A DNA stretch of 64,000 nt. Source: a virus. Its lineage: Duplodnaviria > Caudoviricetes. The position numbers and the translations under genes were made by a program. The notes beneath the pieces were generated by a model. That model saw nothing but the letters and a program-made list of their open reading frames with translations, was not told the DNA's origin and made no database searches. Positions 33,068 through 61,590 of this stretch are shown piece by piece. Position 1 is the stretch's first letter. Every line of letters begins with the position of its first letter. The stretch is taken from the IMG/VR virus record IMGVR_UViG_3300025133_000094, positions 1,182 through 65,181 of that record. One strand, written 5' to 3'.

Positions 33068-33069
33068 CC

Positions 33070-34098: not shown

Positions 34099-34474
34099 TC
34101 CATATAAAATAGATGCACCCCAATACGCCCCCGCTACGGAACCAGTTCCAGCTCTACTTGAAGAAGGTGAGATTGGTTACGGAAACCAGAACTTTAATAA
34201 TACCTTTATAAATGCTACTAGCGAAATACTAGAGTCTGGTCAGAAGTTTTGGCAGGATATATGGGCATTAAATCAACAGAGGCTACAACTAAACGCACAA
34301 GTTAAGGCTTCGGATTATAAGGAATGGCGACTAGGGGAGCTAGAACGACTAGCCAATAAGGCCGAGAAGGAGTTGAAGTATAAAGAACACCTTCGACTAA
34401 TGCAAGAACAAATGGATATAATAAATGGAAACTGGGAAAGGGGTAATGAAACATACGGGGGATTCTCACAATGA
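34073..34474 (+). CDS. Putative internal virion protein
   Basis: GGGAGG RBS, 133 aa, overlaps both neighbours. Confidence 0.6.
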   Translation: MFQQNQQNNPYKIDAPQYAPATEPVPALLEEGEIGYGNQNFNNTFINATSEILESGQKFWQDIWALNQQRLQLNAQVKASDYKEWRLGELERLANKAEKELKYKEHLRLMQEQMDIINGNWERGNETYGGFSQ

Positions 34475-37400: not shown

Positions 37401-40400
37401 CTTATGGTTGGCTGTTCAGCAAGACGCAAGAACTTCTATGGATAATGCATGGACTGACATATCAAACGGGAAAGAATTCTCTGCATGGGTATCTACTCTA
37501 GAGTCGCATACCAATAAGTTATTAGACTATATGTCATCTGTAGTAAGCGGCAGGGTAGACCCCGATAGTAAGGGTATTAATCCAATGTTTGGTTTCAATA
37601 CAACCGACCTTTACGCTAACTTGGAGCATTTCGGCCACGATGACTTAGGCGGTTGGGGCTTTTTTAATGATAGTAAACTATTGGATTGGATGCAGGGGCA
37701 GGGGGATCTACCTGGATCATGGGATAGCTACGTTTCTACAGCTCTTCGCTCAGGAATAGTAATACCTCCAATAGGGGATGATTCTATGTGGTCTGATGAA
37801 TACCGATTCCAGTCAGCTAATAAACAGCTTGAAGCAATGTGGAAGGCTGGCATGCTACACTTCTTTACAGAAGAAACGTACAACCAATTAAAAGATAACA
37901 ACCTAGCACCATACGGATTAGCAAGAGCCTTACAGGTACACCTAAGTGATAATGATACACGGAGATACGCTAGTGCTATAATGTTAGCAGACATATATAA
38001 TGATGATGGCCTGAAGTCACCCCTAGAATTATTAACAACTTTAAAAATAATCAATCATTCAAAATTTAAAAAGGATTCTCGTAAACACCATCTACAAATC
38101 GTAGGTTTAACGGAGGACGGTGAGCAAATCGTAGTGCCTTCCAATATGAAAGGGATTATAAATTATGCCCAAGATTATCGAGGAGATACTACAGACCTTC
38201 TTCCTTTTACTAGTGAGTTGTGGACTGGCGCTACCCCTTATCAGCACCCATCACAATATATAACTCTTGATCCTGTACCGGATGCCGCGACATTAGCTGG
38301 ACACCCAGGACATGACGATGGTCGGTTCTCGTTGTCAAAAGAAGCGCCACCGATACTGGGTGGGGGACCACCAGCGCTTGCAATAATGTATGATTATACT
38401 ATAGGATCAGTTGTAGAATATTTTAAATGGCTGGGAGGCTCCTATGATAATGAGTATGAAGAAGAAATAGATTTGATTTCTAAAGAAAACAATGATAGTT
38501 TTAAAAATATGATGTTGCGTAACTTTACTCAAGAAGAGGGATGGGGTCCAACGTATCGAAGTCTAGGTTTCAATAGCCAAGAAGAATGGAGTCAGTGGTT
38601 TACCGATGAGGTATTGGTACCGTATGTTGCTGATGTTAAAACCGCAGAAGATAATGGTTGGTTAACGGGTATTAATTCTCCTAGTATAGAAGACATGCAC
38701 TTCAATGTATTAGACCGATTAATGAAAAAGATACAAACTGGCGGGGGTCGATTAGGAAATGCTCAACCCGATTTTAATCTATTCGGTTTAAGAGGAATGC
38801 TTGGAGGAGAGAAAATAGGAAATGAGCATACAGATGACCTATTTACTGATCTTTATAAATATGGTAGAAATACTACTCTGTCCATTAATAACACGAGTAT
38901 GAGCGACCTTACAAGAGAAGGAGCTCAAAGCTCCATGACTTTAACCCTACTAAATCGGACGGTGGATGGCACTATAGGCGGAAACATAACGCTTCCTTGG
39001 ACTATAACTGACAACGATTTTCCGCTAGAGAGTTTACCAGCTCATAGGGGATGGCATCCTTGGGAACAAGGCGGACAGAAAGAGGATGAAGAAATAGAGA
39101 TACATATAAAGGATCTCCTAAAGGTACCGGAACTTGAGTGGGATGAGACGATGGAACCTATATCAGACGTAAATAGACTCTTAGAAGAGTCTATGAATGA
39201 ATCCTTTCCTGCAGTGAACGGGGATGTGTTAGGGGTAATGCCTATGCCCAAAGGATTTAAGACACACGAAATTGAAGTGAGAACTTTAGATAAGTTGTAT
39301 TCTTCTCAAGAACAAACAGCAGAACCATCGGAAGCTACCAGTATTTATTTCGCAGCTAAAAAAGATAATCCACTTAAGTTTGTAGTAGGCGAACCCGGAG
39401 ACGGTACGCCTACTCTTATCGATCAGATTCTCGAATACTCAGAATTAGATATCTGGGAAAAAAATGTAGGTTACTTCCCCGAGCCTTCTAATGAAAAGAC
39501 CGCAGCAAAGTTAGCAGAAATTAAAGAAACAGCTAATGCTATGGACGAAAAAGTTACAGAGTATAGAAATAATGTATTTCAGCCAGCCTATGCTGAATAC
39601 TCTCGAATATACCTCGATCGTCAAGAAAGTGGCAGGACTATACACATGGACTCAGAGCCTGAACTAACAGAATTACAGAAGCAGTACATAGAAGAGGAGC
39701 GTGACGGCAAATATGGTAGGATCATTCCTGGTAAAGAAGCTTCTTGGCACCAAATATGTGACAAGAACGATCCACGGCGATGTTCCGTGAGAATATTCCG
39801 CGATCCCGAATATAACAAAATATATCAGGAGTGGAGCCTCAGTCCATACAAGGCACACGCCGAGTTACTGGATATGCAGAACCACATATTAAAAATGCAA
39901 AGCGAAGTAGAGAATTATATTGGAGGATGTGGAACTGACAGTGTTGTTTGTAAGGAATTTTCTAGTGAAGAGGGGCAGCACTATATTAACACGGACATTG
40001 TAAGACCTAAGAGAATGAAACTAAAAGAGTTTCCTTCGATTCATCCCTTAGAGTGGATGCGTAGCATATTAGAATTTACAACAGAAGAATATTATAATAA
40101 TTATCCAATGCTAACTGAGATGGTAAACGCACTTCCTAACGAAACTCCCGAAGAAAAAGAAAGGAGAGTAATCTTTTCACAAGCGTGGGGTAACTATAGT
40201 CCTGCCGAGGATTACCCTCCATTATACGTAGTACCTCTACCTGAGTCATTATTCAGAAGTACTGAACAAGGAGGGCGCAATGTTTCACAGTCTAAAGTCG
40301 CACGGCCAAGCTATACGTCTAATGTAGGACCAAATTACCCGCGCCCACTACCCGAAGAAAGTATGGGTTTTAACTTGGATCAACGGAGGATATTTACCGA

Positions 40401-41916
40401 AATGTCCCGACCTTTTGAAACACCCCCTGATGAGGGTCTTCTATCGCAACTCTCACCCACCGGTGGGCGTATAAAGAAATACCCCATTAATTACCCCACT
40501 GATTACTATGAAGACACACCGATAAAAGAGACTGAAGTAGAGATTGGTCTAGTACCAGGCAAGGCTGATTATCTAGCTTTTGTGGAAGCCGGTGTACTAG
40601 GAGGGAAACGTTGGGATGACCCCAGCAGGGGAGGTCCCCGTTATGGTGAGTCGTATGGACCAGAACACTACAGAGGGGGAAAAAGTGCTAATACGCCCAC
40701 ATATATAATGATGCTTCCAAACGTCCCGGGTACAGAGGAATTGGTAGGGACATTCAATCAGCCCGATGGGGAATGGGAACAGACATTCAATCTGCCCTTT
40801 GGTATAGGATTTCACGAAGGATTCCACGTCATGCAAGAGATGGATTATGGCATCCGCGAAAATAACTTCTGGAGTTCCGATCCGGACCAGCAGAGAAAAG
40901 ACTATTTCGAAAACCCGAGAGAATGGGGTGCATATACAGCTACTGCGCTGGTAAATTATAGGGATATGTTAGGAGTAAAGCCAGGGGAGCGTATAGACAT
41001 AGAAGGATTTTTCGAATATCTAATGGAGATACTGGGAACAGGGAAGGATCCAGCTACTGGGCAGGAAGGCATGCACACTGAATATATTCTTCCTGCAATA
41101 GAGTCGATGCGAGAGATGATAAATTCCAGTTGGCAAGAAACTCCTGAGGGGGAAAAAACAAACCCGTATTTAGATATCTTTGAACACATGTTCACCAACA
41201 CAGACGAATTAGAAAGCCAGGGCCGACTTTTAAAGACTCAGGCAGAACCAAATAGAGATGAAACACCCCAGTCGGGAGCTCATCCTAGTATGTTAACAGC
41301 TATCACTCAAACAGCCCTAGCCCATCCTGGTGTATACCATGAACTAGGAGTAACTGAAGAAGAGTATGAAACATTACAAAAAAAAGAGTGGGCTTCACAC
41401 TATGAGTATCTCAAGAAGGTAGAAGGATCAATACTTAAACCAGCTAATCTATTTGGAGAACCCCACAAAACAGTAGGTATTGGTCACTACTTAGATGGAT
41501 CAGCTTATGATCGAAAGGTTGTAAAGGAAGCATTGCCTAAAGTAGACTATGAAAAACTACGAACGGGACAAATATCCTTGGATGATGATCAAGCACTCGC
41601 GCTATTCAAGGTAGATGCAAGAGAGAAGTATCAATTAGCTAGAAGAATAACTACTGGTTTTGATACGTATTCAAATAACCTTAAGACACAGCTTCTATCC
41701 GCTACTTTTAGAGGTAGTTGGGTTTATTCTGATAAGGCAAGAGGACTATTAGCTCAAGGTAAATTCAAAGAATCAGCAGATGAATTCTTAGACTCTCAAG
41801 AATATAGAGATGCTTTAAAGCCTGATTCAAAAGAACCAGGAGTAGCTCCTAGAATGGAAGCAGTAGCTAAGGCAATACGAGATGAAGAAATCTACGAAGA
41901 AAAGGAGAGTAATTAG
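34471..41916 (+). CDS. Large internal virion protein (2481 aa) with zincin motif and C-terminal lysozyme-like domain
   Basis: FHEGFH...NPREWGAY near 40813; LKKVEG...KTVGIGH...ALALFKVD from about 41400 resembles phage GH24 lysozyme. Confidence 0.85.
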   Translation: MIDPNQGLFKSPGFETPGLFSFPLTPEAEIKLAEMREEHKVASTYKMPSWEYGNAFSTAHTYLALDQAIKEKQGDRDFSDIWQREVSNRGITAAEWIKNNPEELREQISFLMSQTIESNYRDLENQLVDDSLTTEKDTYFSGMSGDFDDMKYPIKGSVDLTSEDRPNGIETIFGNVTEGSYDIGSWSSFLDDEGANMLSSILRRRRLKDGRFSGDIEKSTSAAVTSTIPDTDLSPLFLEKSNSFYYTIDSALGLTKPTRYSSRRTLDRGTQEYDDEMKRRGYNPNALVFTEEGEKQLLLWSQTLNDKSIPQDKWRAHKASIESEIATQYPTLSQKEVKDLYTELKMWGSSGASMGRSKSVWIKLGRSYATLISSQVPVRDDPAADQDINLAEYVDTIMEKVALRNSILSGKGKASEPIEVSIQAVMKDMSKNGEFPEGFQLLWDDYDDTYLKQGMDNMLSTYPLPVWDTDSNVKKDIDSVIYALKDATEKARQQGLETEEFKRLMGVQPIDRPAELEKIEAEDRQRGEEIAAYSEEEGELLSMDREMAELLSPGSMDQYGPTLFSELTDTQVTSDVFNFSRLFAGGVTSKLEWNLNFNTEIGLKANIDTAATLRKIVLSIADRDNKGKPIIDQRVITNIMTALYGYGSAYPTDKTNAKAMYATVTDYSDPRWEQGLRDAIDFAVNTAPEIERIINLKNNPLLAWEETMVEEYKVNFPDMTFNNIDDVENLVVDVAWRHKDYGVRKNYKIMRLYNDLKKAGAAFYEEASGASALHKALLSSQSHWATGTSAAPGASIYNGVWYADNTLIGNEHTPAGQALIQHNMGALGKIWRDTAVSLWGEDATNKAGYTTPFLPSHLFDIQNRTMRFEEIRNPLEAQLVTTFIVNALHGKQVKGDLRVITDLRTYIKDGLTFSNDASVYGEGTDNHSKRQRVWMAVASLIQFSGLMGRDATKRDVILNQILGAKDKEERDMYETVGLWLAVQQDARTSMDNAWTDISNGKEFSAWVSTLESHTNKLLDYMSSVVSGRVDPDSKGINPMFGFNTTDLYANLEHFGHDDLGGWGFFNDSKLLDWMQGQGDLPGSWDSYVSTALRSGIVIPPIGDDSMWSDEYRFQSANKQLEAMWKAGMLHFFTEETYNQLKDNNLAPYGLARALQVHLSDNDTRRYASAIMLADIYNDDGLKSPLELLTTLKIINHSKFKKDSRKHHLQIVGLTEDGEQIVVPSNMKGIINYAQDYRGDTTDLLPFTSELWTGATPYQHPSQYITLDPVPDAATLAGHPGHDDGRFSLSKEAPPILGGGPPALAIMYDYTIGSVVEYFKWLGGSYDNEYEEEIDLISKENNDSFKNMMLRNFTQEEGWGPTYRSLGFNSQEEWSQWFTDEVLVPYVADVKTAEDNGWLTGINSPSIEDMHFNVLDRLMKKIQTGGGRLGNAQPDFNLFGLRGMLGGEKIGNEHTDDLFTDLYKYGRNTTLSINNTSMSDLTREGAQSSMTLTLLNRTVDGTIGGNITLPWTITDNDFPLESLPAHRGWHPWEQGGQKEDEEIEIHIKDLLKVPELEWDETMEPISDVNRLLEESMNESFPAVNGDVLGVMPMPKGFKTHEIEVRTLDKLYSSQEQTAEPSEATSIYFAAKKDNPLKFVVGEPGDGTPTLIDQILEYSELDIWEKNVGYFPEPSNEKTAAKLAEIKETANAMDEKVTEYRNNVFQPAYAEYSRIYLDRQESGRTIHMDSEPELTELQKQYIEEERDGKYGRIIPGKEASWHQICDKNDPRRCSVRIFRDPEYNKIYQEWSLSPYKAHAELLDMQNHILKMQSEVENYIGGCGTDSVVCKEFSSEEGQHYINTDIVRPKRMKLKEFPSIHPLEWMRSILEFTTEEYYNNYPMLTEMVNALPNETPEEKERRVIFSQAWGNYSPAEDYPPLYVVPLPESLFRSTEQGGRNVSQSKVARPSYTSNVGPNYPRPLPEESMGFNLDQRRIFTEMSRPFETPPDEGLLSQLSPTGGRIKKYPINYPTDYYEDTPIKETEVEIGLVPGKADYLAFVEAGVLGGKRWDDPSRGGPRYGESYGPEHYRGGKSANTPTYIMMLPNVPGTEELVGTFNQPDGEWEQTFNLPFGIGFHEGFHVMQEMDYGIRENNFWSSDPDQQRKDYFENPREWGAYTATALVNYRDMLGVKPGERIDIEGFFEYLMEILGTGKDPATGQEGMHTEYILPAIESMREMINSSWQETPEGEKTNPYLDIFEHMFTNTDELESQGRLLKTQAEPNRDETPQSGAHPSMLTAITQTALAHPGVYHELGVTEEEYETLQKKEWASHYEYLKKVEGSILKPANLFGEPHKTVGIGHYLDGSAYDRKVVKEALPKVDYEKLRTGQISLDDDQALALFKVDAREKYQLARRITTGFDTYSNNLKTQLLSATFRGSWVYSDKARGLLAQGKFKESADEFLDSQEYRDALKPDSKEPGVAPRMEAVAKAIRDEEIYEEKESN

Positions 41917-44900
41917 TGGCAAATAGATTATGGAATGTTGCACCGATAGATCCAGTTTTCTCTCATTCGTTTATTAACGAACATTACGAGGAAGAAGTAG
42001 GAGAACTAAATAGACTTAACAACGCACTTCCCTTTAAAGGCGTGACTCGAAAAGATTATGAGAACTTTAGTATGAGCGCACGACGTGATAGATTTACTGG
42101 TGAGTTAGTGAGGGGTCCCCTAGAGCTATGGGACTCTTTAAGACAGAGTGGTGACATGTATTTTAAAAGAGGATACACAGCTACTCACGCCGGAGCAGAA
42201 CAGCTATCAGCTTCTTTGATGTTACGTACAGAAGAAGAACGCGAAAAACTAAAAGATACTAAGTATCTGAAATACTCAAGTGAGGGTACAGAGTTTCTTA
42301 AATCTTTTTCCGAAGGAACTGTATGGAACTTTGCCAGAATGACAGGAAGAACGTATACTGACTTAAATGGAAAAACTAGGTGGCGTGTTCCTATTGATCC
42401 ATTAAACGGCATAGGTGACGGATCATGGGGTATGGCTGCTACTCCTGAAGATATATTTAAGCACGAAGCGCCCGAAGGATGGACACCTAAAGAAGCCCTT
42501 AAAGAAATGGAAGAAGTCGATCCTGATATGCTACAGAAGTATCAAATGTTTTTGGGTGGGGAAGAAGAAGTAAAGAAAATTACTAAGGATACTAGAAATC
42601 CTTATGAATTCTTTTATAGACTAAACGAAGAGTTACAGAATAGAAATATAGCAGAATCGTTAGCTTATCAGTTCAAACAAAACGAAGAAGCCGGTAAATC
42701 TTATATTAACTGGTATGAGCAATGGGGCAAAGAATTTTTAATTAGTAGTATTATTAACGATCCTGATATGGCAGGATCATTGACTATAGCTGCAGCACTT
42801 ACGGTAACTACTGGCATCGGTGGCGTTATTGCAGAGGTAATTCATGCTGGCGCTAAAATAGGTAGGTACGGAAAAACGGCCGATAGGCTGTTAACTTTAG
42901 CGGCAGGTGTACATAAAGTAACAGCGATGGTTCCTAAGGGTGCTATGTTCTTACCAGAAAATTTAGGACCTAGTTTAATTAGGCTGAAGTTTGGCGCCCA
43001 AGCATGGAAAACTAAATCCTTTGTTAATAGGGCTGGGTGGATTACTCTTGGTAATATAGGAGAAGGTACAATTACCGGTGCACTAGCCGAGCTCTCTAAT
43101 CAAACATTCCAAATAGATAAACAGAGCATGGATGAGTATCACCAAAAAGAAATCTTAAGGCAGGCTATGTTTGAAGCAGCTATCTCACCTATCATCAACC
43201 CAATGCTAGGAAGTGTTATGTTCCGTGTACCAAGGCTACCTTTATATACCATGAGTTTTATAAATAGGGGTATTGGAAAACTAAGACCTTCAGCCGGAGC
43301 TAGAGGTACTGCAGTAGGAAACTATTTTAAATCTATTGTGTCTAAAATGAATATCGATCATATAGGACAACGTATCCAAGGATCACGAGATGTTCTAAGA
43401 GCCGCAAAAGACTGGGGTCATATGCTTGGTCAAGACCCAAAGAAAATAGAAGCTCTTCTGAATGATGAGGGATTAGTACAGATCTTTGCTGCTATTATGA
43501 AAGCTAAAGGTATAGATGAATCCTTTACTATAGCCCACATTTCAGAAGCTATAGCCGACTTAAGAAAAGCACACGATGAAAATGTAAGGTTAGCCTTAGA
43601 AGAGGGCAAGCCCGTACCCGCTACCTTCTCAGAAATAGAGTTGGGTGCGATGTTAGCTAGAACCGTTCTAGCAAAACAAGGCTTGCAGCTTTCTCAATTA
43701 GACGGCGCTACTCAAAATCTAGTCGGTGATATGGGAATGAGGTTGTTTATTTTAGGAGAGAAAAAAAAGAAGTTTGAAGCAGATAAAATAGAGATGACTT
43801 GGGAAGAGTTCGCTAAACATATTGAGGATAACGATCCCGAGCTTTTTTGGCGTGAAGGTGTTCCTCAAGAATCTAAGAAATCTGGAGAAACTCTTTTTGA
43901 GGAACAGGTTGGCGGGAACTGGGGAGCTTTACCCTGGAGAGAAAAACTAGGATGGGCAATGTATGCTGATGATATAGCAGTTGATGCAGTCGCGGCTAAA
44001 AAAGAAATAAAGCTGGATGAGATAAATAAAATCTCTAATGAAGTTGACGCTATAAGAAACGATATAGTGCCTAAGACTGAGAAAGAGATAGACACAAAAA
44101 GGGAAGCTGAGGCGGCTACTACAGAAAACGTAGAGGAAAGATTAGAAGAAGTTAAGCATGACATAGATGGCGTTATACATGCTACAAATGATGAAAATGC
44201 TAAGATACAAGAAGAACTAGACAAGTTTGCAGACACTCTATTAGTATCGCCCGAGCCAGGTGAGACTGTTGCAGTAATAGATGTCACGGGCGACATAAAA
44301 GCCGAGATGCAAGCCAGATTGGAGGGTCAGCCGTTTACTAAAGAAGGTTTTACATTAGATGAGAACGGTATATTGTGGGACGATAGGATAGATGCTGAGG
44401 CCGTTAGTGAGATTAACCAGATTATAGAAGAGGTAGCGGGAGATGCTGTAGTAATTCGAGAGGTCGTCATTGATGATCTTAGTGATATTGACGGATTAGA
44501 CGCTGCTGCTATGATTACTGGCATGGGTGTAGATAGTCAAGGAAATCTAGTATTTAAAATAACTATATCAGAGCATGTAGCTGGCTTGCTGGTACACGAA
44601 AGAGCAGACTTTAGAGACGCCGGTCGGCAGACTGTAGCACACGAGGTAGGACACGCAGTACATGATCAAATGACCGACGCCGAGATGAAAGAGTTTCTCG
44701 CTATTTTAGAGGCTGAGGGTATAGTTACAGATGCTATGAATCATGGCGACCTAACTCAAGAAGCCTTTGCAGATCTTTGGGCTATGTATATGAACCCTGA
44801 TGCTACGTTCCATTTCGCTGGAATTAATCTTGAAAATCCGGGGATGTCTGCAAGACCTAAAGGACAAGAAGTAAAGAATAGAGCAGATATTCCTGCTATG

Positions 44901-47900
44901 ATGCTAGCTTTCTTAAGAAAAATTAGAGACAGGTTAAGAATAAAATCAGCTAAGGCAGAGACTGCTGCGGCAGAAGCTTCTACAGTAACCCTAGAAAATC
45001 TGGATTCGATTCAACGCTTCGGAGTTTTATGGGATTATGCTGCAGCTAATGGCTGGGTAAAGGATACCCCAAGTGTACAAATGAAATGGGAGAGTAACTT
45101 TGAAGGATTAAAGAACCTCATTAAGCAGCAATTACAACGAAAATTAACCCCATCAGAACAAACTCCCGAAGAAGAGAGTCTACGTCGAAGGCAGAAAAGA
45201 AATATAAAATTCTTGAGAAGGTTAGATGTGCTTGGAACGCAGATAGACAAAGAACTAAGAGCCTGGAAGGAGTCAGAACACGGCTACTCCCCAGAGCTAT
45301 TAGATGCGGAGATTCAACTAAACAAAGTAAAGAAAGAGCATTTAGATTTAATAAACCAGTTTGAGAAAGAACAGCCAGCATTACACAGCGTACAGAAAAT
45401 ATATAGAGAATCGCTATCTATCTTACGCGGTAAGATATTTTTCAGTGAGACAACTATGGGCGATCTCAAAGCTGAAGTCAAGGTAACAGAATTAGATTCA
45501 GCGGACGTGGTAATACTTAGGACTCTACTAGATAACCTACCAGCAAAGAAGAAGATAGTAGTTCCAAAAACAGCCCGAAGCGGTATAAATAACGCTGTTG
45601 TTATTCTATCTAACTTCTTAGCGGGCGATTCCTTAATGTCCGAAGTTAAGTTTAAGGTTATTCAAAAAGAAGTTAATCTTTATCTATCCCGTCAGTTCGA
45701 GGGGCTAGCAAAAACAATGGCTCGTACTAAGGTAGAAGATAAGTCAAAAGAAGTATTTGAAAAGTTTAGTGACTACAATACTATAATGAACGAGCTAATA
45801 GTAAAACGTATTCAGAGAACAGGGGATAGCATGCTTACTGCTGCTACTATACAAGATAGTTTAGCTTGGCAAGAGAGTAGCTATCGAACACTAGAAGCAT
45901 ATGGAGAAGCGTGGACGAAGATAGTAAACGGTCTTGATGCTGAAGGAAAAACTGAAATGGCTTTATCTACTTTACTTAGACACTTACCCAGAACAAGTAG
46001 ATACAGAATAAACCAAACGGAACTAATAAACGTCGGTAAGCTTAGAAGAGACTCTAAGATAAAGACTTGGAAGGCCAAAGAGATCTTTCACAATGAGACA
46101 GGAAGAGCTCGTAAAAGTATTTCTAAATTAGATAGAAACGCTTTTGGAGATATTAGAGTAAACATAGGACCTTTAGACTTTGCTAAAAACTTTGCTCATG
46201 AGGTAACATCAGATACTATGTTAAATGTTCCCTTAACTGCAGACTTTAAAAAGAAAAACATAACACCAGGTACTACATTAGATGGATCTAAAGTAGTTAT
46301 GGAAGAAACGGTAATGTCCTTTGAGGATTGGCGACATCACCTTGAACTATGGCATGCTGATCCAGCTGAACCCCATAATAAAACAGATGAGGGAGATGTT
46401 ATAATAACAGGAACACAGTTATTAGCTAATCTAGATCCTGATTTTAGAGCAAAGGGTGTGGGACTTGCTAGTATGTTCAGGGGTGCTTTAATAAATCAAT
46501 GGAAAACTATTGAAGACTTGAGACGTTTAAATACAGAGACACCTACTCTTAAGTTTAGGTATAAAGACGTAGCTACAGCCCTGAGTGAAAAGGCTGCTGC
46601 TGGTAGACTATTGTCTCATATAGAATCAAATGCTATAATTACTGAATTAGCTGAACAAGCGTTTCAACAGTTAGATAAACATAATAACCCTAGTCTATAC
46701 AATGCTCATGATGTAGCTATAGAAGTAATAAATCAAGTAGAGAGCTCCTTTAAGAAAGCAGATAAGGCAGGATATGATATGTTCGGCTTTGTATTAAGAT
46801 GGGATGATGAAAACGGCCTACCCGTACACAGTCCGCATACTGTAGATAAGGATACGTGGATATCCGCTGTTAAAAAACAGGTAGTTAAACGACTAGAAGT
46901 AGCTACTCACGGCGGTATTAAGCCCGATACTCTTAATAGAATATATGATATATTTGGTATACGGGAGCTAAAACCAGACGCTCAAACAAAACTATCTACT
47001 CCCCAGTATGAACAATTAGCTGATATCATGGTAAGCAATCTACACAGGACACGAAGAAATGGGCCGACTATAGATATAGCCGACTTTGGTAATGGCAATA
47101 GAGAGTGGCACTCAGCATACGATTTAGGGAATCAAATAGTAGATGCTTTTACTAAAGAAGAAATGTATACAACTAAGCAACTGTATGCCTCTAAAGATAT
47201 ACATCCAGATGCTCGGGGGTCAGAAGCAGAAGTAGGACCGGGAGAAAAGACAGCAGTTCAGCCACCGCTAGAAGGCGATCTTAACTTTGTTACCCGTAGA
47301 TCTCTATGGGAAATAGATAGAATAATGAAGAACGGTCTCTTTAGAGAAGGACGAATAGCTTTTGTTTTAAATAGAGATAACTTGACTTCATCTGTGATAA
47401 AGGCTTACAATAAGGTAAAGGAAGAGGGTGGGTTTAGATTTCCCGAGGGAACTATACATGTATCAGATGTGATGCCTGTGTCTCTAATACCTTACGTACA
47501 GGGAGACATATTACAACAGCCTCCTATGACTCAAGAGCAAGTTAAAAAATACCTTCTTAATATTGCTCTCAATACACCGCAGCAAGCCAATACGATTGTC
47601 CACGATAAAATTATAGCAGCTAAAGATAATGTATTAAGGCTAAACCAAAAAGACGGAATGCCAATAGCTACAGAGTTTATTGGCATGGGTGGAGATTTTG
47701 GCTACCCTTACCATATGGTGGGCATGATAAGAGCTATGGAATTGGGATCAGTACACGCTAAAGGTCTTACAAAAAATTCTATAAACTTAGTAAGTAAACT
47801 ACAAGCTGAGTGGCAAGAGAACCACAAGGTAGACCTATCTACAGAAGAGGGGTTAAATAAAGCTAGAAGAGATTTCTTTGATCATAGTACAGGACATGAT

Positions 47901-50900
47901 ATGATGTTCTCTGGTCGGTATCTTACTTTCATGCAAAGCCGTATGGGCGATCCCAAACTAGCTGAGCAAATGTTTCAAATCGAAAAAGCTGTAGCAGAGT
48001 TACTGTATAATGAAGATCTAGGTGAATATCAATATGATATAAATGTTTTACAAACAGAAACAAAAGAGTGGTATAGAGCTGGTACTCTTCATATATTAAA
48101 TTTAATTACTGGCTTAAACCAAGCACAACGCAGCAGGCTAGGAGCTAAGGTTAAGCCACTCTTAGATATACTTCAGCCACTAAGAGATAACGATATTAAT
48201 ACCCTAGAAGATTGGAAAATATTTGAGGATAAAAATCCTAATGATCCTAAGGTAAGAGTTATCCGTGCATTCATGAAGTTACCATTGATGAGAGCTATGT
48301 ATGGTATGGAAAAAGCAGGGTGGTTAAAGATTTTCAGAGATTCCGAAGGAACAGATATGCTTAAGAAAGTATATAAGACTCTGGAAATAGAATTAGATTC
48401 TACAGATATAGAACATATAGGAGATATCTTATTCCACGGAGCTATAGAGGGTACTGGTCAACTGATGTATAGAGCTTTGGGATTAGAGTATGAAGGAGAA
48501 CCAGGAAAATCTCCAAAGGCAGAGGCTCTTAAGTGGATGGAGATGGATAGAAGTGCAGATACCCTACTAACTACAGTAAAAGATTTACTTAAGTCACATG
48601 GTACGGAACTAAGATCTTCAAGGGATTCTTCTGGACGAGAATTTAATAAGCTTTATCAATTAGATACTCATGAAAAATATCTAAAAGCTTCTATAGAAAC
48701 ACAAGCTAGTGTAGAGTTTAGAACTAATGAACCTACTGCTGAACAAATCAAAAAGATTAAGGACAAGTATGCACCTCTAAGAGAGATGGAAGATTTCTTA
48801 AAGCAAGACGATATACCATCAGACTTCGGTCCAGGACATAAGAGATGGAATGAGTATAAACAAATTCCCTATAAGAACTTGATGCCCGAGAGTCAGATAG
48901 GTGCCTTTAGAGCATTCACTACTCTTAATAGTAGCGGCTATAGAATAGCTATTAAGGCATTAGAGACTACGGCTAGGCATCTTGGGTTAGAGAATTTCAA
49001 TGCTGATATTTTCCTAGGGCTAGAGAGATATGTTTTCTATCATAATATGCTTCCTAGTGAAAAAGCAGTTAGAGGCTTTGATACACAAGCTGGTAGCGGC
49101 ATGAGTCCAATAGGTATTGGTATAGAAAAAGTACTTACTAATGAAGCCTTATTTAAAGAATGGGCTACCACTGAATGGGCTAAACTAAAAGCCGATCGAA
49201 AAGCTAAAGGCGATACCAGCCCAATGACGATTGCTGAATACGATACTTTAGTCCGGAAATATATAGCTCTTGATCCAGATAGAGCAGAGATCCTAGGCAC
49301 ACAAGAACTTGTAGACGGTGGCTTAATACAAATGTATAAAGAGAACGGACTAGAGTCTGTTGAAGCTGAAATTGAAATGCTAATGCTTCAGAACGAGTTA
49401 CTATATCAATCGACATATGGTCCACCTCAGCTTATTAACTATCACTTAGAAGATGATATAGCAATACTTAATAATCAAACCGCTATGAACTGGTTTAAGA
49501 ATACCGTAGAGAATGCAGATACAAGGGCAAGAGAAAAGGCTAATCAAGAACAACTATTATCTGATTCACAAAACAATGCGTATGCAGAGAAGATGTTAGA
49601 GTTAGTACAGCAAGCAGGTAATAACTTATTAAGATCTCAAGGACCTATTAAGCCTTACGTTAATACAGAGAGGGCTCGTTTAGACGTATTTCCAAATAAC
49701 AGCGACCCCTTAACGATACTGAACCAACAACAGAAAGGTGTTAGAGCCTTTGATCCATTATACACAACAGTTCCTTATACGGATAAACCTAACTTCTTCT
49801 TTCTAAAACAGTATCATGAACGGAAGATGAGAGAAATCTCACACACACTAGACTTAATAGTAGACGAAAGTTCTAAAGAGCAACATGTACTTGACCCTAA
49901 CGATTTAGGTTATCCTATGCCGTGGAAAGAAAAGGATATGCCTAAGCCAGTTAATACTGTTACCAATGACTTGAATAATATTCTCCAACGAACAGATATA
50001 AGTCCTAGAACTTCCGAACTATTCCACAGTCTAAATAACTTCGCTAAGAGAAAAGGTACTCTATACACCGATGCACTGAGTAAACTGGAAGACGCCTATC
50101 CTTATATGTATTTAACAATGAAGATGGAAGAAGCCAAAGATAATATAATATTAGCTAAACGTCGTTTCAGAACTGAAATGACTCCGGCTGAGATAACAGC
50201 TCTTAGGGCAGAGTGGCTAGGAGATCTTCATACCTTGAGCCAATTCAGTAGAGATACTAAACTAGCAGAGATAGGACCCCACGCTTTAGAAACCGCAGGA
50301 ATGGATATAGCTTTTGCTAATGTTCCAAGCGAAGCTATAGCTATTATAGATCAGCTACAAAGTATCTATGCATCTGAAGATAAACCAAACGGTCTTTTAT
50401 TTCAACCTACTATGTTACAGGGTCCGTTGAAGATGGGATTAACACCGGCTGATATCCGTATCCAAGCTAAGGATGATCAAGGTAATCCAACCGACGAATT
50501 AGTATATACAGATCTAGAAGCTAATCCACTAGCAAACCAGAACATGGATATGTCTATTCTTCTATTCGCTATAGAATATCCTAATTATATCAAACCTATT
50601 ATAGACGAACATTATCCACAGTATTCTGATATAAAAACATTTGAAGATTGGACTCTGTTAATTGATCCTAAGCATAAAGTTGAAATTGAAGCCCTAGCTG
50701 CCGAAAGTGTTACAGGAGCTGACGGTAAAGGATTTGGACAAAGTATTGTATTCGATATGTCTATAATGGACTCACTACACGAAGGCAAAATAGATCCTAA
50801 TAGAGTCCTTCTTACTATAGATGAAGCTAATATTGTTGAGGTAGACGGAGAACAAATTAACTATCAATTAAATCACCTACTAAGTAAAGCTGGCTTTGGC

Positions 50901-53900
50901 TTCTTTATGCAGAGTCCTTCGGCTATAAAAGGGAAGACACTTCAGATGACTATCAGTCATAGGGGTGCGCTTAAGATGATGCTAATGTTAGAGAACCACG
51001 CTCCCTTTAGACGTATGCGTGAATCTATGTGGGCTAAGATACCTTACGGTACTGTGGAGACAGCACTGGGTGAGATAGATATATCAAGACCAACAAATGA
51101 AATACTACGAGATAAGTTTGGCCATAATATGAGAGCATCACATGAAGATAATATTGAACTTCACGGAGCTCTATCAGTTATGGCAAAGACTGTGGGCGAA
51201 AAGAAACTGAAGCCAACATATGATCCTACTCGTGGCATGAAAGGTTCTAAGCGCTTTGCTATGACGGATTTAGATTATTATTCAGTCAATAAACTTGCAG
51301 ATAGTGGATTAGTTAGGCCTTGGCTCGAATCACACATAAGTGTTTTATCTGAAGTTGTTACCTCAGCTAGAAGAAGCGGTTACGAGATGTTTCAAAAAGA
51401 ACTCTTTACAGAGATTGATACTCTAATTGAAGGAGCTAGAAAGGGAGAACAAGAAAATATCGCTACGGCTATAGCGTTTAGTGTAATGTTCTCTCAAGGA
51501 GAACAAACAGGAAACTGGACACCAGACCATCAAATGATGCGTGTCTTTATGGATGAAAGAAACTTCAATGAAGGAGAAGTATCTAATGCACTAATGAAAG
51601 CAGACCTGCTCTTAAATAAGATAGCTAAAGCTACCGACTTAGATACTACATGGTTCAATAACCCAATCAACCTCAGAGCTCGTGCTTATATTCAAAATAT
51701 GACTAAGGCTGATCTGGAAAACTTTACTGAGGGAGATAATACTTCTAAGCTAACAGGAATGTTTATAGAGTCTTTAGGTGAAACTCCTGACATAGGGCAT
51801 TATGTAGTTAACGAGTTAGGCGATGCACTAGACTTATTGGGTGGTGAAGGAGTTAATCTTCATGAATCAGTAGACTATAGAGCTTGGTTAGAGGATAGGG
51901 AAAAGGTTATTAATGTTGATATAGAGACAAACTTATCCCAAGATAATATCAGTGTAATTACGTTATCTCAAAAAGATACTGGATTCAAAAATACTGTTCG
52001 GGGTAAAAAGGTAGGAGATTGGGTAACTCCTGACCAAGCTCAAGAACATCTTAACTTTCTTGAAGACATGCAGAACAAGGGCTATAAGGTTGCATTCCAC
52101 AACGGAGTAAGCTTTGACACACGAATACTAGGCAACGTAGCTGGTTCTCGTCATTCTGATGCATCCATGCAAACAGCTGTACAGAATCAAGCTTCTCGTA
52201 TAGCTATAAGAACCGTAGATTCTTTAGATAACGGAAGATCATTCAAAGGAGAAATGGTTGAGTATACAGACAGCGGTAAGATTCGTAGTAAAGGCAATAA
52301 CTATTATGTTTCATTATCTAATCTTGCTAAGGCTTTAGGAATAAAACAAACAAAGTCTTTAGAGTTCGGCGGACTAGAAGCTGCTCTATTATTTGAGAGG
52401 GTTAGGGGAGAGACAGTAACACTAGGATCAGAAGCTAAGAAGGTGGGAATGACTCAGGAACACATAGATGTAATAAACAACACAACAAAAATGAAAGCGT
52501 GGAACAAGTTTAAGAAGTACGCTGAAGGCGATGCTGAGTTGGGTTATAAGGTGCTTTATGGTGATGGTGATGTTCAAGGCTTAGCGGATATTCGAGGAGA
52601 GCTAACTGTCGATTATGCTCCTGATCCTAAGACTGGAAACGAACGAAAGGTTACTCTAAACGTAGAAGAAATGATGCCTACTTGGCTACTCAGTCAACGA
52701 GAGAGTGGTAGGTTTCACGGTACATTATCTCAGTTTAGTGAATGGGAAAACGTCAACACTATAACGAGAGCTTTGTCTAATACCGACCATACCGCTAGGT
52801 CTATGGTTGGGTTTGAGGGCGAGTCTTTCTTAATAGATAATGGTGGAGAACAGTTAACTGTAAACGCTAAGCAGGCTAAGGCAGCTATAGGTTTAGCGAT
52901 AGGAGAATGGCAAGCTGAGAAACACTACGAACCTACCTCATGGTTAGATGATGAGGTACTTCAGTTTACTTATAATAACGTAAAGAGCGCTAAGAAGTTC
53001 CGTGAATTTGCGATAGATAGGGATGATGCTCATCTAGAAAATCTTGGTATTACTATAGAAAAGCTAGTTTTAAATGAATATATAAACAATGAAGACGCTG
53101 TTATGTTTAGAGCCATGATACTTAGGCTTAATCAAATAAATCCATTTACAGTTAAAGATATAACAATGGAAACTATACAACGACTAGTAAAAGAAACGAA
53201 ACCAGGATCAGCGGAGAGAGTTGGTGATTCTTATAAACTACGTATAGGTGAAGAAGCTACACAACTATTAGGTAAAACCGAAGGACATATGTCTGTTGTA
53301 CAGATGTTTGCTCATGAATTGTCTCACTTAACCCGACTTCGTTTTGTAGATGAAAACAACGGAACTTGGCAAAGATGGTTAGCTTATGCAGAGAGTAATG
53401 CTGGTAAAGCCATGATGCTTAAACTAGTAACTCAATGGCACGGTGGCATAGAGACACAAGCTGTATTAAACGAAGTTGATGGCTATATAAGAGATCCCGA
53501 AGAATTTATAGCTGCCCAAACATCTTTCTTCTTACTTAACGATGTTCAACATATTCAAGCTGACTTTACCGCAGATGAGTATAAAGCATACTCAGAAAGT
53601 GTAGGTATAGTTACACGTATTATAAATAACGTTAGAGATATGTTCAGAAAAATCGCAGATGTATTTGTAGAGTTTGAGAAGACTGACTCAGATGCTTATA
53701 AAGAAATGGTTTCACTTGTTACCCATACACTAGGCTATAAGAATAAAGGTCATCTTAAAGCAGTTAGGAAAGGTCAAAGGGACGGCCAGCTTTATTGGAT
53801 GGATAGAATTGAAGTAAATCGTAAGAAGTATAAATATTCTCTTGATGATCTAAAGACTATGGTCATTAGAGAAAAACAGTTAGAAAAGATACGAGATATA

Positions 53901-56900
53901 TCTGGTATGTGGACTACAGAACAAGCTACTGAATTAGTTAAACTAAAGGAACAATTACAGTCAGCTGATGCTACTGATAGAAGTGTATTAGGCTTTACTA
54001 GAGCCGAGCAATCTGTAGCTTGGGAGCAGCTTACACACGAATTCTCTAGATTCGAGATCGAAGAAGGTACCCCAAGTGGGGAACGTATACTAGATATAGT
54101 AAGAGTTTTTAATGAAGGCAATAGTAAACAGAAGGCTCAAGCTATGGATTGGTTACTCTCTCAGATTCAAAAAATATATGGTTCAGCTATAACGGCGAAG
54201 AGTGGTGAGTTTTTCGCCATTGCTGCTAGGAAAGCCGAATCTATTCTACCGGGACTGGCTACCGATAGAATAAGAAGTATGCTAACAAACTTAATGGCCG
54301 CTAATACAGGAGCTCAGTATACTTGGAATAGCATATCTATTATGCCGGTACTGCTAACAGCTTTACTGGACGATGAGGTTGTTACTACTTTCGCTGACTT
54401 TACAAAAGGAGATACTCCGTCTGTACGTAGAACATTAGATGCCTTTAATAAGTATAGCGATCTTCTAAATGGAGAACAGGGAGAAATACTTAGTCTTATA
54501 AATAGTATTGGAGCCAAGGCTTTAGGAACAGGACCCAGTGAACACGCCGCTGCGTTAATGCAGCATATTAACGAAGCTGTACTAAGGGGTGCTCAGTCTT
54601 TAAGGGGAGGCGCACACTTTAATATCGATGAAGAAATACACCCTAGTGTAAGAAACCATCCTAAGTGGGCTGAGATTAAAGTACATATTCTCGGTGGTGA
54701 GTTACGGGGCGATAAAGTCTTCGGAATGATAGAAGCATATAAAAATCAGATAGAAGCTATTGAATCTAAGGGCATAGAGATTGGAGAGTTTAGTAGAAAC
54801 TTTATACAAATAGCTCCATGGTATTTCTCAAAGAGTTTAATGGATGGCGATAATATGGATATGTTCTGGAGAGAAATGCCTATAGAAATAGATAATCATA
54901 TACGGCAAGAGCTTGATAAAAAACACGCAGGTATTGATCCCTTATACTTCTTTCAAGCAGGACTCCTACCCAGAGTAGATACATTTTTAATGGCAGATCT
55001 AAAGCAGATGGAAACGACACACTTACACATGCTAAGAGTTATAGCCGGTCTTGTTAACAAGAGGGTTAATCCAGATGTTGCTCACATGCTTACGGATCCT
55101 GTAGATGAATTATTTGCTAGACTGGAAAGTGAAAATGTAACTGTTAATACTATGTGGAGAGAGGCTACTAGTAAAACTGTTGGTTTTCTAATGTCGCAGA
55201 TGGGACGCCAAGATTATACATTCAAGCGTCTTGTTAAGGATCTTAAAATATATAGCCCTGATATAACTAAAGTAGAAATAAATGCTATTAGACTTGCGTA
55301 TAAAAACGTAATAGGTACCGATGTAGGATCAAGTCGCTTGTCATCGTTACGTGCTTTAAATAATAAAGCTATACCCTCTAGTGTATGGGCTCCTGGCTCT
55401 TTAACATCAGCAGGAGTTAAAATGAAAACAGAAGGTCTTATGACAGCGGCTGATATGCATACTAGAAATATACTAGTACGAGCATCTGGTGGAGTTTACT
55501 TCTCTAACGATTCTTGGTCTATCCCTAGCGTATTAGATGTTGTTGCGAGAAATGACAAAATTAGATCAGTAGTATCTTTCGATACACCCGCTATCTCAGG
55601 AGCATTGCTTAGGGGCGTTGGTGATAGAATATTTGAACTTAACATGATGCACGAACTATTTGGGATTTATGGCGACTACAGATCTATTATAAACCTGTTT
55701 GCAGAAGTTGTAGATAAACCCTTTAGAGAGATAACAAATCCAGACGGAACACTTGTTAATACTAAAGAATTGCTGAAGAGTGCTCATATACTTCTAGATA
55801 AGTGGAGAGCCTATCGACACATTAAACAAGTACCAGATCATCAAAGTAGTATGGAAGCTTGGCTATTTAAGAATGCTCCTAACTTCGTGAAGATTGTATT
55901 TGGACCTAGTTTATCTCTAGCGTCTCTGTCTACCGAACATACTTTAGCTATGATGAGTGAGTTACTTGGAAAGAGAAGTATAGGCGGCTTTGCTAGACAA
56001 GCTCTAGGTCCGCTTACATCTCTATCAAAAGAAAGAAGAAAACGAATAGCGCGTAGTATGGCTAGTAGCTTAACCAGAATAGATAAAGCTTTTCTACCTG
56101 ACTCTCAAATGCCAGCAACAATGGACAAGGCAGGATTTTTAGATAAGTGGTCAAGCCTTAACATGAGAATAGCCCATCATGTTCATGAGAGTATAGGAAT
56201 GGCGCGGACAGAGAATATTAGATTAGAGATAGCTGATATGATTAAGGACGGTAAAATTGAAAACCTAATTAAACTAATGCACAAATCCGGTGACCAAGCA
56301 TATCTACGAACAGATGAACTTTTATCTAACCCCGATCATCTTATAAAATTAGCACGAGAGGCAAAGATAGGTTCTGCCTTTGATACTGTTATAATCACAA
56401 TGAATAAAACAGGTTTATTAAATATGGGTACCTTTGCCATGATGCAGCAAATGGTAGTTGAGAGTACTCAAGAATATAATAGATATTACGATACAAATGA
56501 AATGCTGATGCTCTTATTAGAGAATAAGAAAACTATGGATAATGATGTCTTCCGAATGAGAGAAGATATTATCCAAGCTCTTAGAGATGTCGAGACTGCT
56601 TATGTACACGATGTTATGGTGCAGGCTAAACCAATGGATACCTCTACTCGTGGCGGAATGATGGATTATATATTTGAGCTATTTAGAAAGTATCCAGTTC
56701 TCTTCTTCCTACAACACGTTATGAGAAAATCTAGTAGGCATACCCCGATAAGATGGGCTACTGGCGTTATGGCTTTGATGCTTCTTGATGTGTTATATAT
56801 GATGTTACTACGTATATCTATGGGAAACCGCCCAGAAGATATAATTAAAGCAGCTGAAGACGATCCAGTAGGATTCTTTTTGATGTATGGAAGTCGTCTG

Positions 56901-60944: not shown

Positions 60945-61011
60945 ACTCGTCTGGGCGAGTATAAATAGAACCTAAGCCTAGAGCGTCCGACCCTACGGGG
61001 TCGGGGCGTTT
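60945..61011 (+). ncRNA. Pistol ribozyme, predicted cleavage between G61006 and C61007
   Basis: P1 ACTCG/CGAGT; loop TCTGGG pseudoknots with CCTAGA; ATAAATAG linker; TAAG..AGCG; P2 TCCGACCC-TACG-GGGTCGGG; P3 AAC/GTT. Confidence 0.92.
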
Positions 61012-61275
61012 CCCCTAAGTGGGCCTATCTACCATGATTTTTTATGAAGGGTGTACCCCGTTCAAGATACAGCCGTATAGGTGTGTAAGGGCTGTATCGC
61101 AATAGGTGGGTTAAGAGAACAAGGGTGGATATAATATAGGGTATACCTAGGTCTTAGGGTATACGTAAGTATAGCCAGGAGAACCCTAGGGTTCCAGTAC
61201 AGGGCAAGCCGGGGGACCTTAGGTCCGCGGCTTGCCCCATCAGCCAGAAATTATGGTCAAGTTCCCTGACTGGCA
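61012..61275 (+). other. Structured non-coding segment of stacked hairpins
   Basis: GATACAGCC/GGCTGTATC, GTATACC/GGTATAC, GAACCC/GGGTTC, GGGCAAGCCG..CGGCTTGCCC, GCCAG/CTGGC; no ORF. Confidence 0.6.
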
Positions 61276-61576: not shown

Positions 61577-61590
61577 AGCCCGCATTCAAC

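What the first reader, a model, noticed from the sequence alone, without database searches (positions are those of the whole stretch)
47550..50800. Probable virion-packaged RNA polymerase inside the 5183-aa protein, giving three single-subunit polymerases in one phage
Seen: RAFMKLPLMRAMYG (48264-48305) matches motif B, RxxxKxxxMxxxYG, exactly. It lies 122 aa after a motif A candidate, GHDMMFSG (D at 47898). A tentative motif C, SIVFDMS (D at 50754, N4-like FD), preceded by PLANQNMD, is about 830 aa downstream. That is unusually far and is the weak point. Established: N4-like phages inject a giant virion RNAP, whereas T7-like phages normally have one RNAP. Inference: a T7-type virion with an N4-like cascade of virion RNAP, short RNAP and canonical RNAP.
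Basis: partly seen in the sequence, partly recalled or inferred. Interest (0 to 1): 0.85.

Follow-up and report, generated by a model that had tools for sequence, protein, structure and literature searches.

The report
Possible injected polymerase in giant protein
A 5183-residue, cysteine-free protein of an uncultured marine T7-like phage has the nucleotide-binding helix of phage RNA polymerases, conserved in all its relatives, so the phage may inject its own polymerase as phage N4 does, but the catalytic core could not be recognised.

Summary
Motif B is real. R...K...M...YG occurs twice in the six-frame window, in the canonical T7-type RNAP and here. R2117 and K2121 are kept in 19/19 relatives and Y2129 in 19/20. 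Profile comparison places this helix, plus an upstream DxY helix, in register on motif B of N4 vRNAP and T7 RNAP. The protein has no cysteine, as in N4 gp50. It occupies the T7 gp16 / N4 gp50 gene slot and has an N4-C1-like zincin domain downstream.

The catalytic palm is not shown. N4 and T7 palm segments do not map onto the family (0/8), although they map onto each other 10/10. Two AlphaFold models were poor and gave no polymerase fold matches. Pfam, PHROGs and PDB sequence searches found nothing.

Verdict: probably (about 0.55) a very divergent injected N4-type polymerase module; activity unproven. Earlier notes of this scan report similar giant proteins in other T7-like phage genomes; I did not test them.

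The parts
41916..57467 (+). Giant ORF, 5183 aa, no cysteine; last and largest gene of the presumed ejection-protein block (the T7 gp16 / N4 gp50 slot)
   Evidence: a family of giant homologs of 4098-5359 aa
47283..51005 (+). Conserved polymerase-like region, residues about 1790-3030
   Evidence: Invariant columns in 11 full-length giants: R1813 P1859 D1897 G1925 P1931 A1940 D1995 R2117 K2121 Y2129 and on to Q2875 D2878 G3006 N3027. For residues 1751-2950 (47166-50765), the ESM Atlas nearest clusters are PF00940 and N4 vRNAP
47595..47618 (+). TIVHDKII: invariant D1897 after a hydrophobic run; resembles motif C (IHD) but lies upstream of motif A
   Evidence: D 18/18. The T7 motif C segment aligns best here, but over only 7 columns
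47892..47915 (+). GHDMMFSG: motif A candidate, family consensus D-R-x-x-S-G (compare T7 D-G-S-C-S-G)
   Evidence: D1995 19/19. Not mapped by the N4 or T7 motif A profile segments
48057..48104 (+). ETKEWYRAGT...: helix equivalent to the D-x-Y helix upstream of motif B in N4 vRNAP and T7-type RNAPs
   Evidence: hhalign places it in register with high posterior confidence. Y in 11/13 and D in 11/13 of the family
48264..48305 (+). RAFMKLPLMRAMYG: motif B (O-helix) R-x3-K-x-P-x-M-x3-Y-G
48873..49145 (+). Strongly conserved block of unknown role (iGyFrALN.xNsS ... LG.e..lYh..LPs..S.R), between motif B and the distal Asp
50538..50549 (+). QNMD: invariant Q2875 and D2878 (family V-Q-x-x-D-F); best candidate for the second catalytic Asp, 761 residues after R2117
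   Evidence: Q 15/15 and D 15/15
50742..50762 (+).
   Evidence: D 9, E 5, A 1 of 15
53295..53696 (+). Zincin (HExxH + E) domain, H3800/E3801/H3804 invariant; matches the C1 (HExxH) subdomain of N4 gp50
   Evidence: hhalign 41.5-42.0 against N4 residues 2222-2355, versus a maximum of 28.1 with the reversed template
32381..41916 (+). Upstream ejection-protein candidates: ORFs of 228, 342 and 133 aa (no Cys) and 2481 aa (4 Cys)
   Evidence: Synteny with T7 gp14-16 and N4 gp52-50 is inferred from passages of PMC13434306
710..3151 (+). Canonical T7-type RNA polymerase, 813 aa
   Evidence: PF00940 3.2e-77; phrog_414 5.9e-147

Best explanation
The 5183-aa protein is an ejection (internal virion) protein of a T7-like marine podophage. 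In its middle third it carries a very divergent single-subunit polymerase module of the N4 vRNAP / T7 RNAP type.

Inferred mechanism: the protein is packaged in the head, threaded unfolded through the tail and periplasm (hence no cysteine), and refolds at the inner membrane or in the cytoplasm. The module there binds NTPs through the conserved O-helix (R2117, K2121, Y2129). It polymerises RNA on the entering phage DNA using two of the invariant Asps (D1995 with D2878, or D1897). That would give host-independent early transcription before the canonical 813-aa RNAP is made.

Shown here: the motif, its conservation, the in-register profile similarity of the fingers part, the N4-like context.

Inferred: packaging, ejection, a functional palm, RNA rather than DNA synthesis, timing.
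For: 1. Motif B is specific. There are 2 six-frame hits in 64 kb, the true RNAP and this one, and 19/20000 shuffles contain the pattern.

2. R2117 and K2121 are kept in 19/19 and Y2129 in 19/20 relatives, most of them under 30% identical. K2121 is the only invariant Lys in 1200 residues.

3. hhalign of the fingers segment (2040-2145) against the N4-like profile scores 26.1. Column shuffles give mean 12.5, sd 1.6, max 16.2 (n=40); the reversed segment gives 20.9. It lands on the same N4 columns as the T7 fingers do. The reciprocal comparison, N4 fingers against the family, scores 29.2-30.8 (P 0.002-0.003) at residues 2040-2136. The known N4-T7 pair scores only 14.3-19.9 across the runs.

4. Against single sequences, the segment maps onto motif B of the window's RNAP, of N4 and of T7, but not onto motif B of the window's DNA polymerase.

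5. The ESM Atlas nearest clusters for 1751-2950 are PF00940 and N4 vRNAP domains (0.93, 183/256 shared features). A control segment (3700-4899) gave LPD39 instead.

6. N4-like context:
- 0 Cys in 5183 aa, and 0 Cys in 10 of 12 homologs. N4 gp50 and 6 of 6 other N4-like vRNAPs also have none. The phage's own RNAP, short polymerase-like ORF, DNA polymerase and capsid protein have 1.1-2.1% Cys.
- A zincin domain lies downstream and matches N4 C1 at 41.5-42.0, against a null maximum of 28.1. Iyer et al. [quoted passage not shown]
- The gene slot is equivalent to N4 gp50 / T7 gp16 (passages).
Against: 1. Palm motifs are not recognisable. N4 and T7 segments carrying T/DxxGR, motif A, motif C or the half-palm mapped to the expected collinear places in 0 of 8 cases. 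The same segments mapped correctly between N4 and T7 in 8 of 8 cases, or 10 of 10 with the fingers segments. The test therefore has power and the family fails it.

2. Two AlphaFold2 models were poor: mean pLDDT 58.2 and 59.0, pTM 0.37 and 0.35, almost all helix, with no confident strands at D1897 or D1995. Foldseek gave 0 hits at E<=1e-3 and no polymerase among the hits listed at E<=10 in PDB (both models) or BFVD (first model).

3. Pfam, PHROGs and PDB sequence searches found nothing. PF00940 and PF21867 run on the phage's own genome at E<=10 hit only the canonical RNAP.

4. Whole-region hhalign scores (27-31) lie within the null range of 18-29.

5. The residues before D1995 are polar, not a hydrophobic strand. 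There is no GR in the T/DxxGR-like place. The distance from motif B to D2878 is 761 residues, against about 170-285 in T7 and N4.

6. The Atlas 'recognition' value was low (1515), which the tool itself rates as weak evidence.
Confidence: 0.55

Rival explanations
1. It is not a polymerase. The region is a helical part of a giant ejection or 'polyvalent' protein (channel, DNA-binding or effector scaffold). The R-x3-K-x7-Y helix is conserved for another reason, such as binding DNA or a nucleotide, and its likeness to motif B is convergent or chance.
For: - No palm by profile mapping: 0/8, against 8/8 in the N4-T7 control.
- Models are nearly all-helical with no polymerase fold hits.
- No Pfam, PHROG or PDB sequence hit.
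- Whole-region profile scores lie within the null range.
- In the full-length slice scan the fingers hit (27.4) does not exceed the reversed-template maximum of 28.1.
- Other parts of the protein resemble polyvalent-protein domains such as LPD39.
Against: - The strict motif is rare: 19/20000 shuffles, and its only other occurrence in the window is a true RNAP.
- The three residues that bind the NTP in known enzymes are exactly the (near-)invariant ones.
- The similarity extends about 70 residues upstream, in register, and is stronger than between N4 and T7.
- It maps to RNAP motif B in three separate templates.
- The Atlas signal is specific to this region.
Confidence: 0.27
2. It is polymerase-derived but is not a transcribing RNAP. 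It could be a decayed or repurposed module that keeps NTP binding, or one that makes something else: DNA, primers or untemplated tails. In this phage and its closest relative it might work with the DEDD exonuclease domain about 380-600 residues further downstream.
For: - Only the fingers part is recognisable, and the palm motifs depart from both N4 and T7.
- A DnaQ-like exonuclease domain follows in P0001 and P0003: PF13482 is precomputed on P0003 and is mentioned in note e1-6245491.
- The phage already has a canonical RNAP.
Against: - Three Asps and the motif B triad are invariant across relatives that are mostly only about 20% identical, which argues for retained catalysis.
- The exonuclease domain is absent from the majority consensus of the 11 giants, so it is not part of the conserved unit.
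- The motif B segment does not map onto motif B of the phage's family A DNA polymerase.
Confidence: 0.13

Closest known systems
Coliphage N4 gp50 virion RNA polymerase (Schitoviridae; mini-vRNAP residues 998-2103; C1 zincin subdomain)
   Same: - Giant cysteine-free protein in the last slot of the ejection-protein block.
- A central region with the motif B triad and an upstream D-x-Y helix, aligning in register.
- An HExxH zincin domain downstream, then a large helical C-terminal part.
   Different: - 5183 versus 3500 aa.
- No significant sequence or Pfam match.
- T/DxxGR, motif A (DGxxNG) and motif C (FDG) are not recognisable.
- About 760 residues lie between motif B and the next invariant Asp, against about 285 in N4.
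- The zincin starts about 850 residues after the polymerase-like region, against about 125.
- The host phage has T7-type, not N4-type, replication and virion genes and a full-size T7-type RNAP.
- The C-terminal match is unconvincing.
T7 RNA polymerase family (Pfam PF00940)
   Same: - Motif B R-x3-K-x3-M-x3-Y-G, with Met at the T7 M635 position.
- D-x3-S-G like T7 D537-G-S-C-S-G.
- A Trp upstream of motif B.
   Different: - PF00940 does not hit it even at E<=10 on the phage's own genome.
- The palm segments do not map.
- It is embedded in a virion protein.
T7 gp16 / internal virion (ejectosome) proteins of Autographivirales-like phages
   Same: Gene position after the small and medium ejection proteins; large, helical, probably ejected (passages).
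   Different: About four times longer. No lytic transglycosylase or other Pfam domain was found. It carries zincin and polymerase-like motifs.
Polyvalent proteins of phages and conjugative elements (Iyer et al. 2017, PMC5512222)
   Same: A giant multidomain delivered protein that combines a zincin-like metallopeptidase with other modules. Residues 3700-4899 are nearest to LPD39 clusters (section 5 of the paper read).
   Different: From the passages I read, that paper recovered the RNAP module only in N4-like phages and prophages. A T7-like phage context is not mentioned there.

Membership tests
N4-type virion RNA polymerase (gp50 / mini-vRNAP) | Motif B: R, K and Y on one helix (N4 R666, K670, Y678; numbers recalled, consistent with the alignment) | tested here: met
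   R2117 19/19, K2121 19/19, Y2129 19/20. In-register hhalign to N4 motif B
N4-type virion RNA polymerase (gp50 / mini-vRNAP) | Motif A catalytic Asp at the end of a strand (N4 EADGVTNG) | tested here: inconclusive
   D1995 is invariant in D-x3-S-G (19/19). However, the preceding residues are polar and the N4 and T7 motif A segments do not map there, although they map onto each other
N4-type virion RNA polymerase (gp50 / mini-vRNAP) | Motif C catalytic Asp (N4 KIFDGMN) | tested here: inconclusive
D2878 is invariant (15/15) but is not mapped by the N4 or T7 motif C segments and lies 761 residues after motif B
N4-type virion RNA polymerase (gp50 / mini-vRNAP) | T/DxxGR motif | tested here: not met
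   T7 FPYNMDWRGR aligns with the family's VPFxxIGE. The P and G are kept but there is no Asp/Thr and no Arg. The segments do not map
N4-type virion RNA polymerase (gp50 / mini-vRNAP) | Right-hand fold (palm, fingers, thumb) | tested here: inconclusive
   Two AF2 models, pLDDT 58-59 and pTM 0.35-0.37. Foldseek against PDB and BFVD gave 0 hits at E<=1e-3 and no polymerase among the listed hits. No coordinates were available to measure distances
N4-type virion RNA polymerase (gp50 / mini-vRNAP) | Giant cysteine-free protein encoded in the ejection-protein block | tested here: met
   0 Cys in 5183 aa. N4 and 6/6 other N4-like vRNAPs also have 0 Cys. The gene order of small, medium and giant ORFs follows the virion genes
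N4-type virion RNA polymerase (gp50 / mini-vRNAP) | Zincin (HExxH) domain fused downstream of the polymerase | tested here: met
   H3800/E3801/H3804 are invariant in 11/11 giants. hhalign to N4 2222-2355 scores 41.5-42.0, against a reversed-template maximum of 28.1
N4-type virion RNA polymerase (gp50 / mini-vRNAP) | Presence in virions, ejection into the cell, RNA synthesis on phage DNA | not testable with these tools
   Uncultured phage; no proteome or assay is available
T7-type single-subunit RNAP (Pfam PF00940) | Match to the family profile above its cut-off | tested here: not met
   0 families for four overlapping pieces at E<=0.1. PF00940 on the phage's own genome at E<=10 hits only 710-3151
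Polyvalent proteins (Iyer et al. 2017) | Giant delivered protein that combines a zincin-like metallopeptidase with several other domains, including LPDs | tested here: inconclusive
   The zincin is met. LPD39 is only an Atlas lead (0.95, 166/256 shared). No Pfam LPD hit

The most novel reading that the evidence does not exclude
A widespread group of marine T7-like phages with genomes of about 65 kb injects a single-subunit RNA polymerase whose architecture is new. The fingers are N4-like, but the palm is either split by an insertion of about 750 residues (D1995 ... D2878) or permuted, with a motif C-like IHD (D1897) before motif A, as in permuted viral RdRps. Together with the canonical RNAP and the short polymerase-like ORF, this would give a T7-type phage a transcription programme that does not need the host polymerase.
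Probability: 0.2. Interest if true: 0.85.

Novelty: new variant of a known kind. Interest (0 to 1): 0.62.

Why it matters
T7-like phages are the textbook case of a phage that must borrow the host RNA polymerase to start infection. Injecting a polymerase is considered a hallmark of N4-like phages. If this giant ejection protein is an active polymerase, an abundant marine T7-like lineage combines both strategies. The lineage is large: 210 RNAP relatives at E<=1e-10, on contigs of up to about 71 kb (longest listed 71,266 bases).

The N4 vRNAP would then have a far older and wider family than sequence searches show. The enzyme would also be a very unusual single-subunit polymerase, of interest for enzymology. 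If it is not a polymerase, the invariant R/K/Y helix in a family of ejection proteins still marks a functional site worth testing.

Tried and rejected
Searches that found nothing:
- Pfam and PHROGs on four overlapping pieces of the giant protein: 0 families.
- Pfam on 9 shorter relatives at E<=1: only noise.
- PDB sequence search: 0 hits, and 2 hits at E 0.12-0.13.
- tblastn of the region, and of P0009, against 50,697 phage records: no match.
- IMG/VR scans with the region and with P0004: no relative.
- BLASTP against N4 mini-vRNAP and the window's own RNAP: not significant.
- PF00940 and PF21867 on the phage's own genome: only the canonical RNAP, or nothing.

Comparisons with no power or within the null:
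- Whole-region hhalign against N4 and T7 profiles fell within the null. The N4-T7 positive control was no better (32.5), so this test has no power.
- HMM-to-sequence comparisons gave bits below 6.
- The C-terminal match to N4 gp50 (score 32.7-34.2) shows 10% identity and low confidence; I rejected it as evidence.

Structure: two AF2 jobs and three Foldseek jobs gave no support.

Promoters:
- No repeated promoter-like motif of 16 nt or more.
- No strong sigma-70-like site on the + strand in the 61.6-62.3 kb leader: best 9/12, and 8 sites against 5.8 expected in the scanned stretch. This is uninformative for an unknown host.
- I did not search for N4-type hairpin promoters systematically.

The last homolog search added only one giant, P0151.

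Supplements of the papers were not opened. The domain tables of Iyer et al. 2017 may list related proteins. I searched the paper library three times and saw no report of an N4-type vRNAP in a T7-like phage. That is not proof that none is in print.

Full report
**What the window is.** The window is bases 1182-65181 of a 65,181-base virus record. It encodes a T7-like set of genes on one strand:
- an 813-aa RNA polymerase (710-3151; PF00940 3.2e-77)
- primase/helicase, family A DNA polymerase and ribonucleotide reductase
- portal, scaffold, capsid and tail tube A and B
- large terminase

The capsid protein finds only distant relatives, all under 60% identity, in 91 phage records. These are mostly Pelagibacter, Prochlorococcus, Synechococcus and Roseobacter podophages. 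The RNAP has 210 relatives at E<=1e-10, many on contigs of 63-71 kb, so this is an abundant uncultured marine lineage.

After the terminase come three small ORFs (228, 342 and 133 aa), a 2481-aa ORF and the 5183-aa ORF at 41916-57467.

**The observation.** Motif B is not a chance find:
- The strict pattern R...K...M...YG occurs in 19 of 20000 shuffles of the protein.
- In the six-frame translation of the whole window it occurs twice: in the canonical RNAP (RAVAKRPTMCDPYG, 2459) and here.

**Relatives.** The word-indexed search found only one relative, P0003 (50% identity, 5275 aa). The exhaustive HMMER search with residues 1751-2950 found 27 proteins at E<=1e-3. Ten of these are giants of 4650-5012 aa at 23-29% identity. 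Later searches added P0151 (4098 aa) and open frames of 4734 and 5359 aa in related IMG/VR records.

Conservation in alignments of these relatives:

| Residue | Kept in |
|---|---|
| R2117 | 19/19 |
| K2121 | 19/19 |
| Y2129 | 19/20 |
| M2125 | 17/20 (L in 3) |
| P2123 | 16/19 |
| D1995 | 19/19 |
| D1897 | 18/18 |
| Q2875, D2878 | 15/15 each |

K2121 is the only invariant lysine in the 1200 residues. The motif C assignment moves to D2878, if it belongs anywhere.

**Is it a polymerase? Evidence for.**
- N4-like vRNAPs share R-x3-K-x-P-x5-Y-G with the family. T7 numbering and the roles of these residues are recalled from the literature, not read here.
- The fingers segment (2040-2145) scores 26.1 against a 7-sequence N4-like profile. 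Column shuffles give mean 12.5, sd 1.6, max 16.2 (n=40); the reversed segment gives 20.9. It lands on the same N4 columns (986-1061) as the T7 fingers do (986-1062).
- The reciprocal comparison scores 29.2-30.8 (P about 0.002-0.003) at residues 2040-2136. Motif B and an upstream D-x-Y helix are in register with high posterior confidence.
- The known N4-T7 pair scores only 14.3-19.9 for the same segments across the runs.
- Against single sequences, the segment maps onto motif B of the window's RNAP, N4 and T7, but onto an unrelated place in the window's DNA polymerase.
- The protein-language-model search puts residues 1751-2950 nearest to PF00940 and N4 vRNAP clusters (0.93, 183 of 256 features, but low 'recognition' of 1515). 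A control segment of the same protein (3700-4899) is nearest to LPD39 polyvalent-protein clusters, so the signal is specific to this region.

**Evidence against.**
- I cut the N4 and T7 profiles into segments carrying T/DxxGR, motif A, fingers, motif C and the half-palm. Between N4 and T7 all 10 segments land at the expected places, so the test works on a truly remote pair.
- Against the giant family only the 2 fingers segments land correctly. The 8 palm segments do not. The T7 motif C segment picks the IHD at D1897, over 7 columns and out of order. The others land at unrelated places.
- Two AlphaFold2 runs were made, on residues 1751-2950 and 1790-2330, with 20-row alignments. They gave mean pLDDT 58.2 and 59.0 and pTM 0.37 and 0.35. 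The models are almost all helix, and confidence is below 50 around D1897 and D1995. The 2050-2174 helices reached 71-91.
- Foldseek gave 0 hits at E<=1e-3 and no polymerase among the hits listed at E<=10, in PDB (both models) or BFVD (first model).
- Pfam, PHROGs, PDB sequence searches and PF00940 or PF21867 on the phage's own genome do not see the region.
- Whole-region profile scores are within the null.

**Context.**
- The protein has no cysteine in 5183 residues. Ten of 12 homologs have none either, nor do N4 gp50 and 6 of 6 other N4-like vRNAPs. The phage's own RNAP, short polymerase-like ORF, DNA polymerase and capsid protein have 1.1-2.1% Cys.
- Passages of PMC3821669, citing Kazmierczak et al. 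2002, link the lack of cysteine to passage through the periplasm.
- Passages of PMC13434306 describe N4 gp52, gp51 and gp50 as the three ejection proteins, with gp52 equivalent to T7 gp14, and an HExxH C1 subdomain right after the RNAP domain.
- Section 5 of Iyer et al. [quoted passage not shown]
- Here H3800/E3801/H3804 are invariant in 11 of 11 giants.
- In a slice-by-slice scan of the full-length family profile against a full-length N4-like profile, three hits are collinear: the zincin (3794-3927 to N4 2222-2355, 41.5-42.0), a C-terminal stretch (32.7) and the fingers (27.4). They are the three highest-scoring distinct regions.
- With the reversed template the maximum is 28.1. Only the first two collinear hits exceed it, and on inspection the C-terminal one is unconvincing.

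**Reading.** The ejected-protein part of the claim is well supported by inference. The polymerase part rests on one strongly conserved, specifically RNAP-like fingers module and N4-like architecture. Against it stands a palm that neither profiles nor structure prediction can find. My probabilities:

| Reading | Probability |
|---|---|
| Real, very divergent, injected N4-type polymerase module | 0.55 |
| Not a polymerase | 0.27 |
| Polymerase-derived module with another or a lost activity | 0.13 |

If it is a polymerase, its palm is unusual. It is either split by about 750 residues, which contain a strongly conserved block of unknown role (2320-2410), or permuted, with the IHD of D1897 ahead of motif A.

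**The 'three polymerases' statement.** It depends also on the 615-aa ORF (58447-60294). I saw only a weak T7-profile match at its LSIHDAWG and no Pfam hit.

**Earlier notes of this scan.** They report similar giant proteins, with the same reading, in other T7-like phage genomes. They are untested here and are not counted as evidence.

Noticed in passing
window 41916-57467 and 32381-34474: The giant ORF has no cysteine, and the three small ORFs before it (228, 342 and 133 aa) also have none. The 2481-aa ORF has 4. The phage's RNAP, short polymerase-like ORF, DNA polymerase and capsid protein have 1.1-2.1% Cys.
   Followed up: yes
window about 51900-52560 (residues about 3329-3549): A DnaQ/DEDD-like exonuclease stretch (VDIET, FHNGVSFD) is seen in this protein and in P0003, which carries a precomputed PF13482 hit. 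It is absent from the majority consensus of the 11 aligned giants, so it looks like a lineage-specific insert.
   Followed up: partly
window 53013-56612 (residues 3700-4899): The nearest ESM Atlas clusters are phage proteins with LPD39 (0.95, 166/256 features), a 'large polyvalent protein-associated domain' that Iyer et al. 2017 list as possibly enzymatic.
   Followed up: no
window 48873-49145 (residues 2320-2410): The most conserved block of the region (N2338, G2368, P2380 and R2386 invariant) has no counterpart that I could find in N4 or T7 RNAPs and no invariant acidic residue.
   Followed up: partly
window 58447-60294: The 615-aa ORF has LSIHDAWG, which aligns weakly to the motif C part of a T7-type profile (3.5 bits). 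There is no Pfam hit, and only an unknown-function PHROG hit at E 5e-4.
   Followed up: partly
window 60945-62308: A long, mostly non-coding leader with several strong hairpins and one 85-codon ORF (61320-61577) lies upstream of the block of small early-looking genes. No good sigma-70-like site is found on the + strand (best 9/12).
   Followed up: partly
records G001-G004 (loci L023-L027): Relatives whose RNAPs are 60-63% identical to this phage's carry giant ORFs that are only 22-26% identical in the polymerase-like region. The giant protein therefore evolves much faster than the RNAP.
   Followed up: partly
window 40737-40802: A tandem pair of 33-nt units (79% identical) lies near the end of the 2481-aa ORF.
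   Followed up: no
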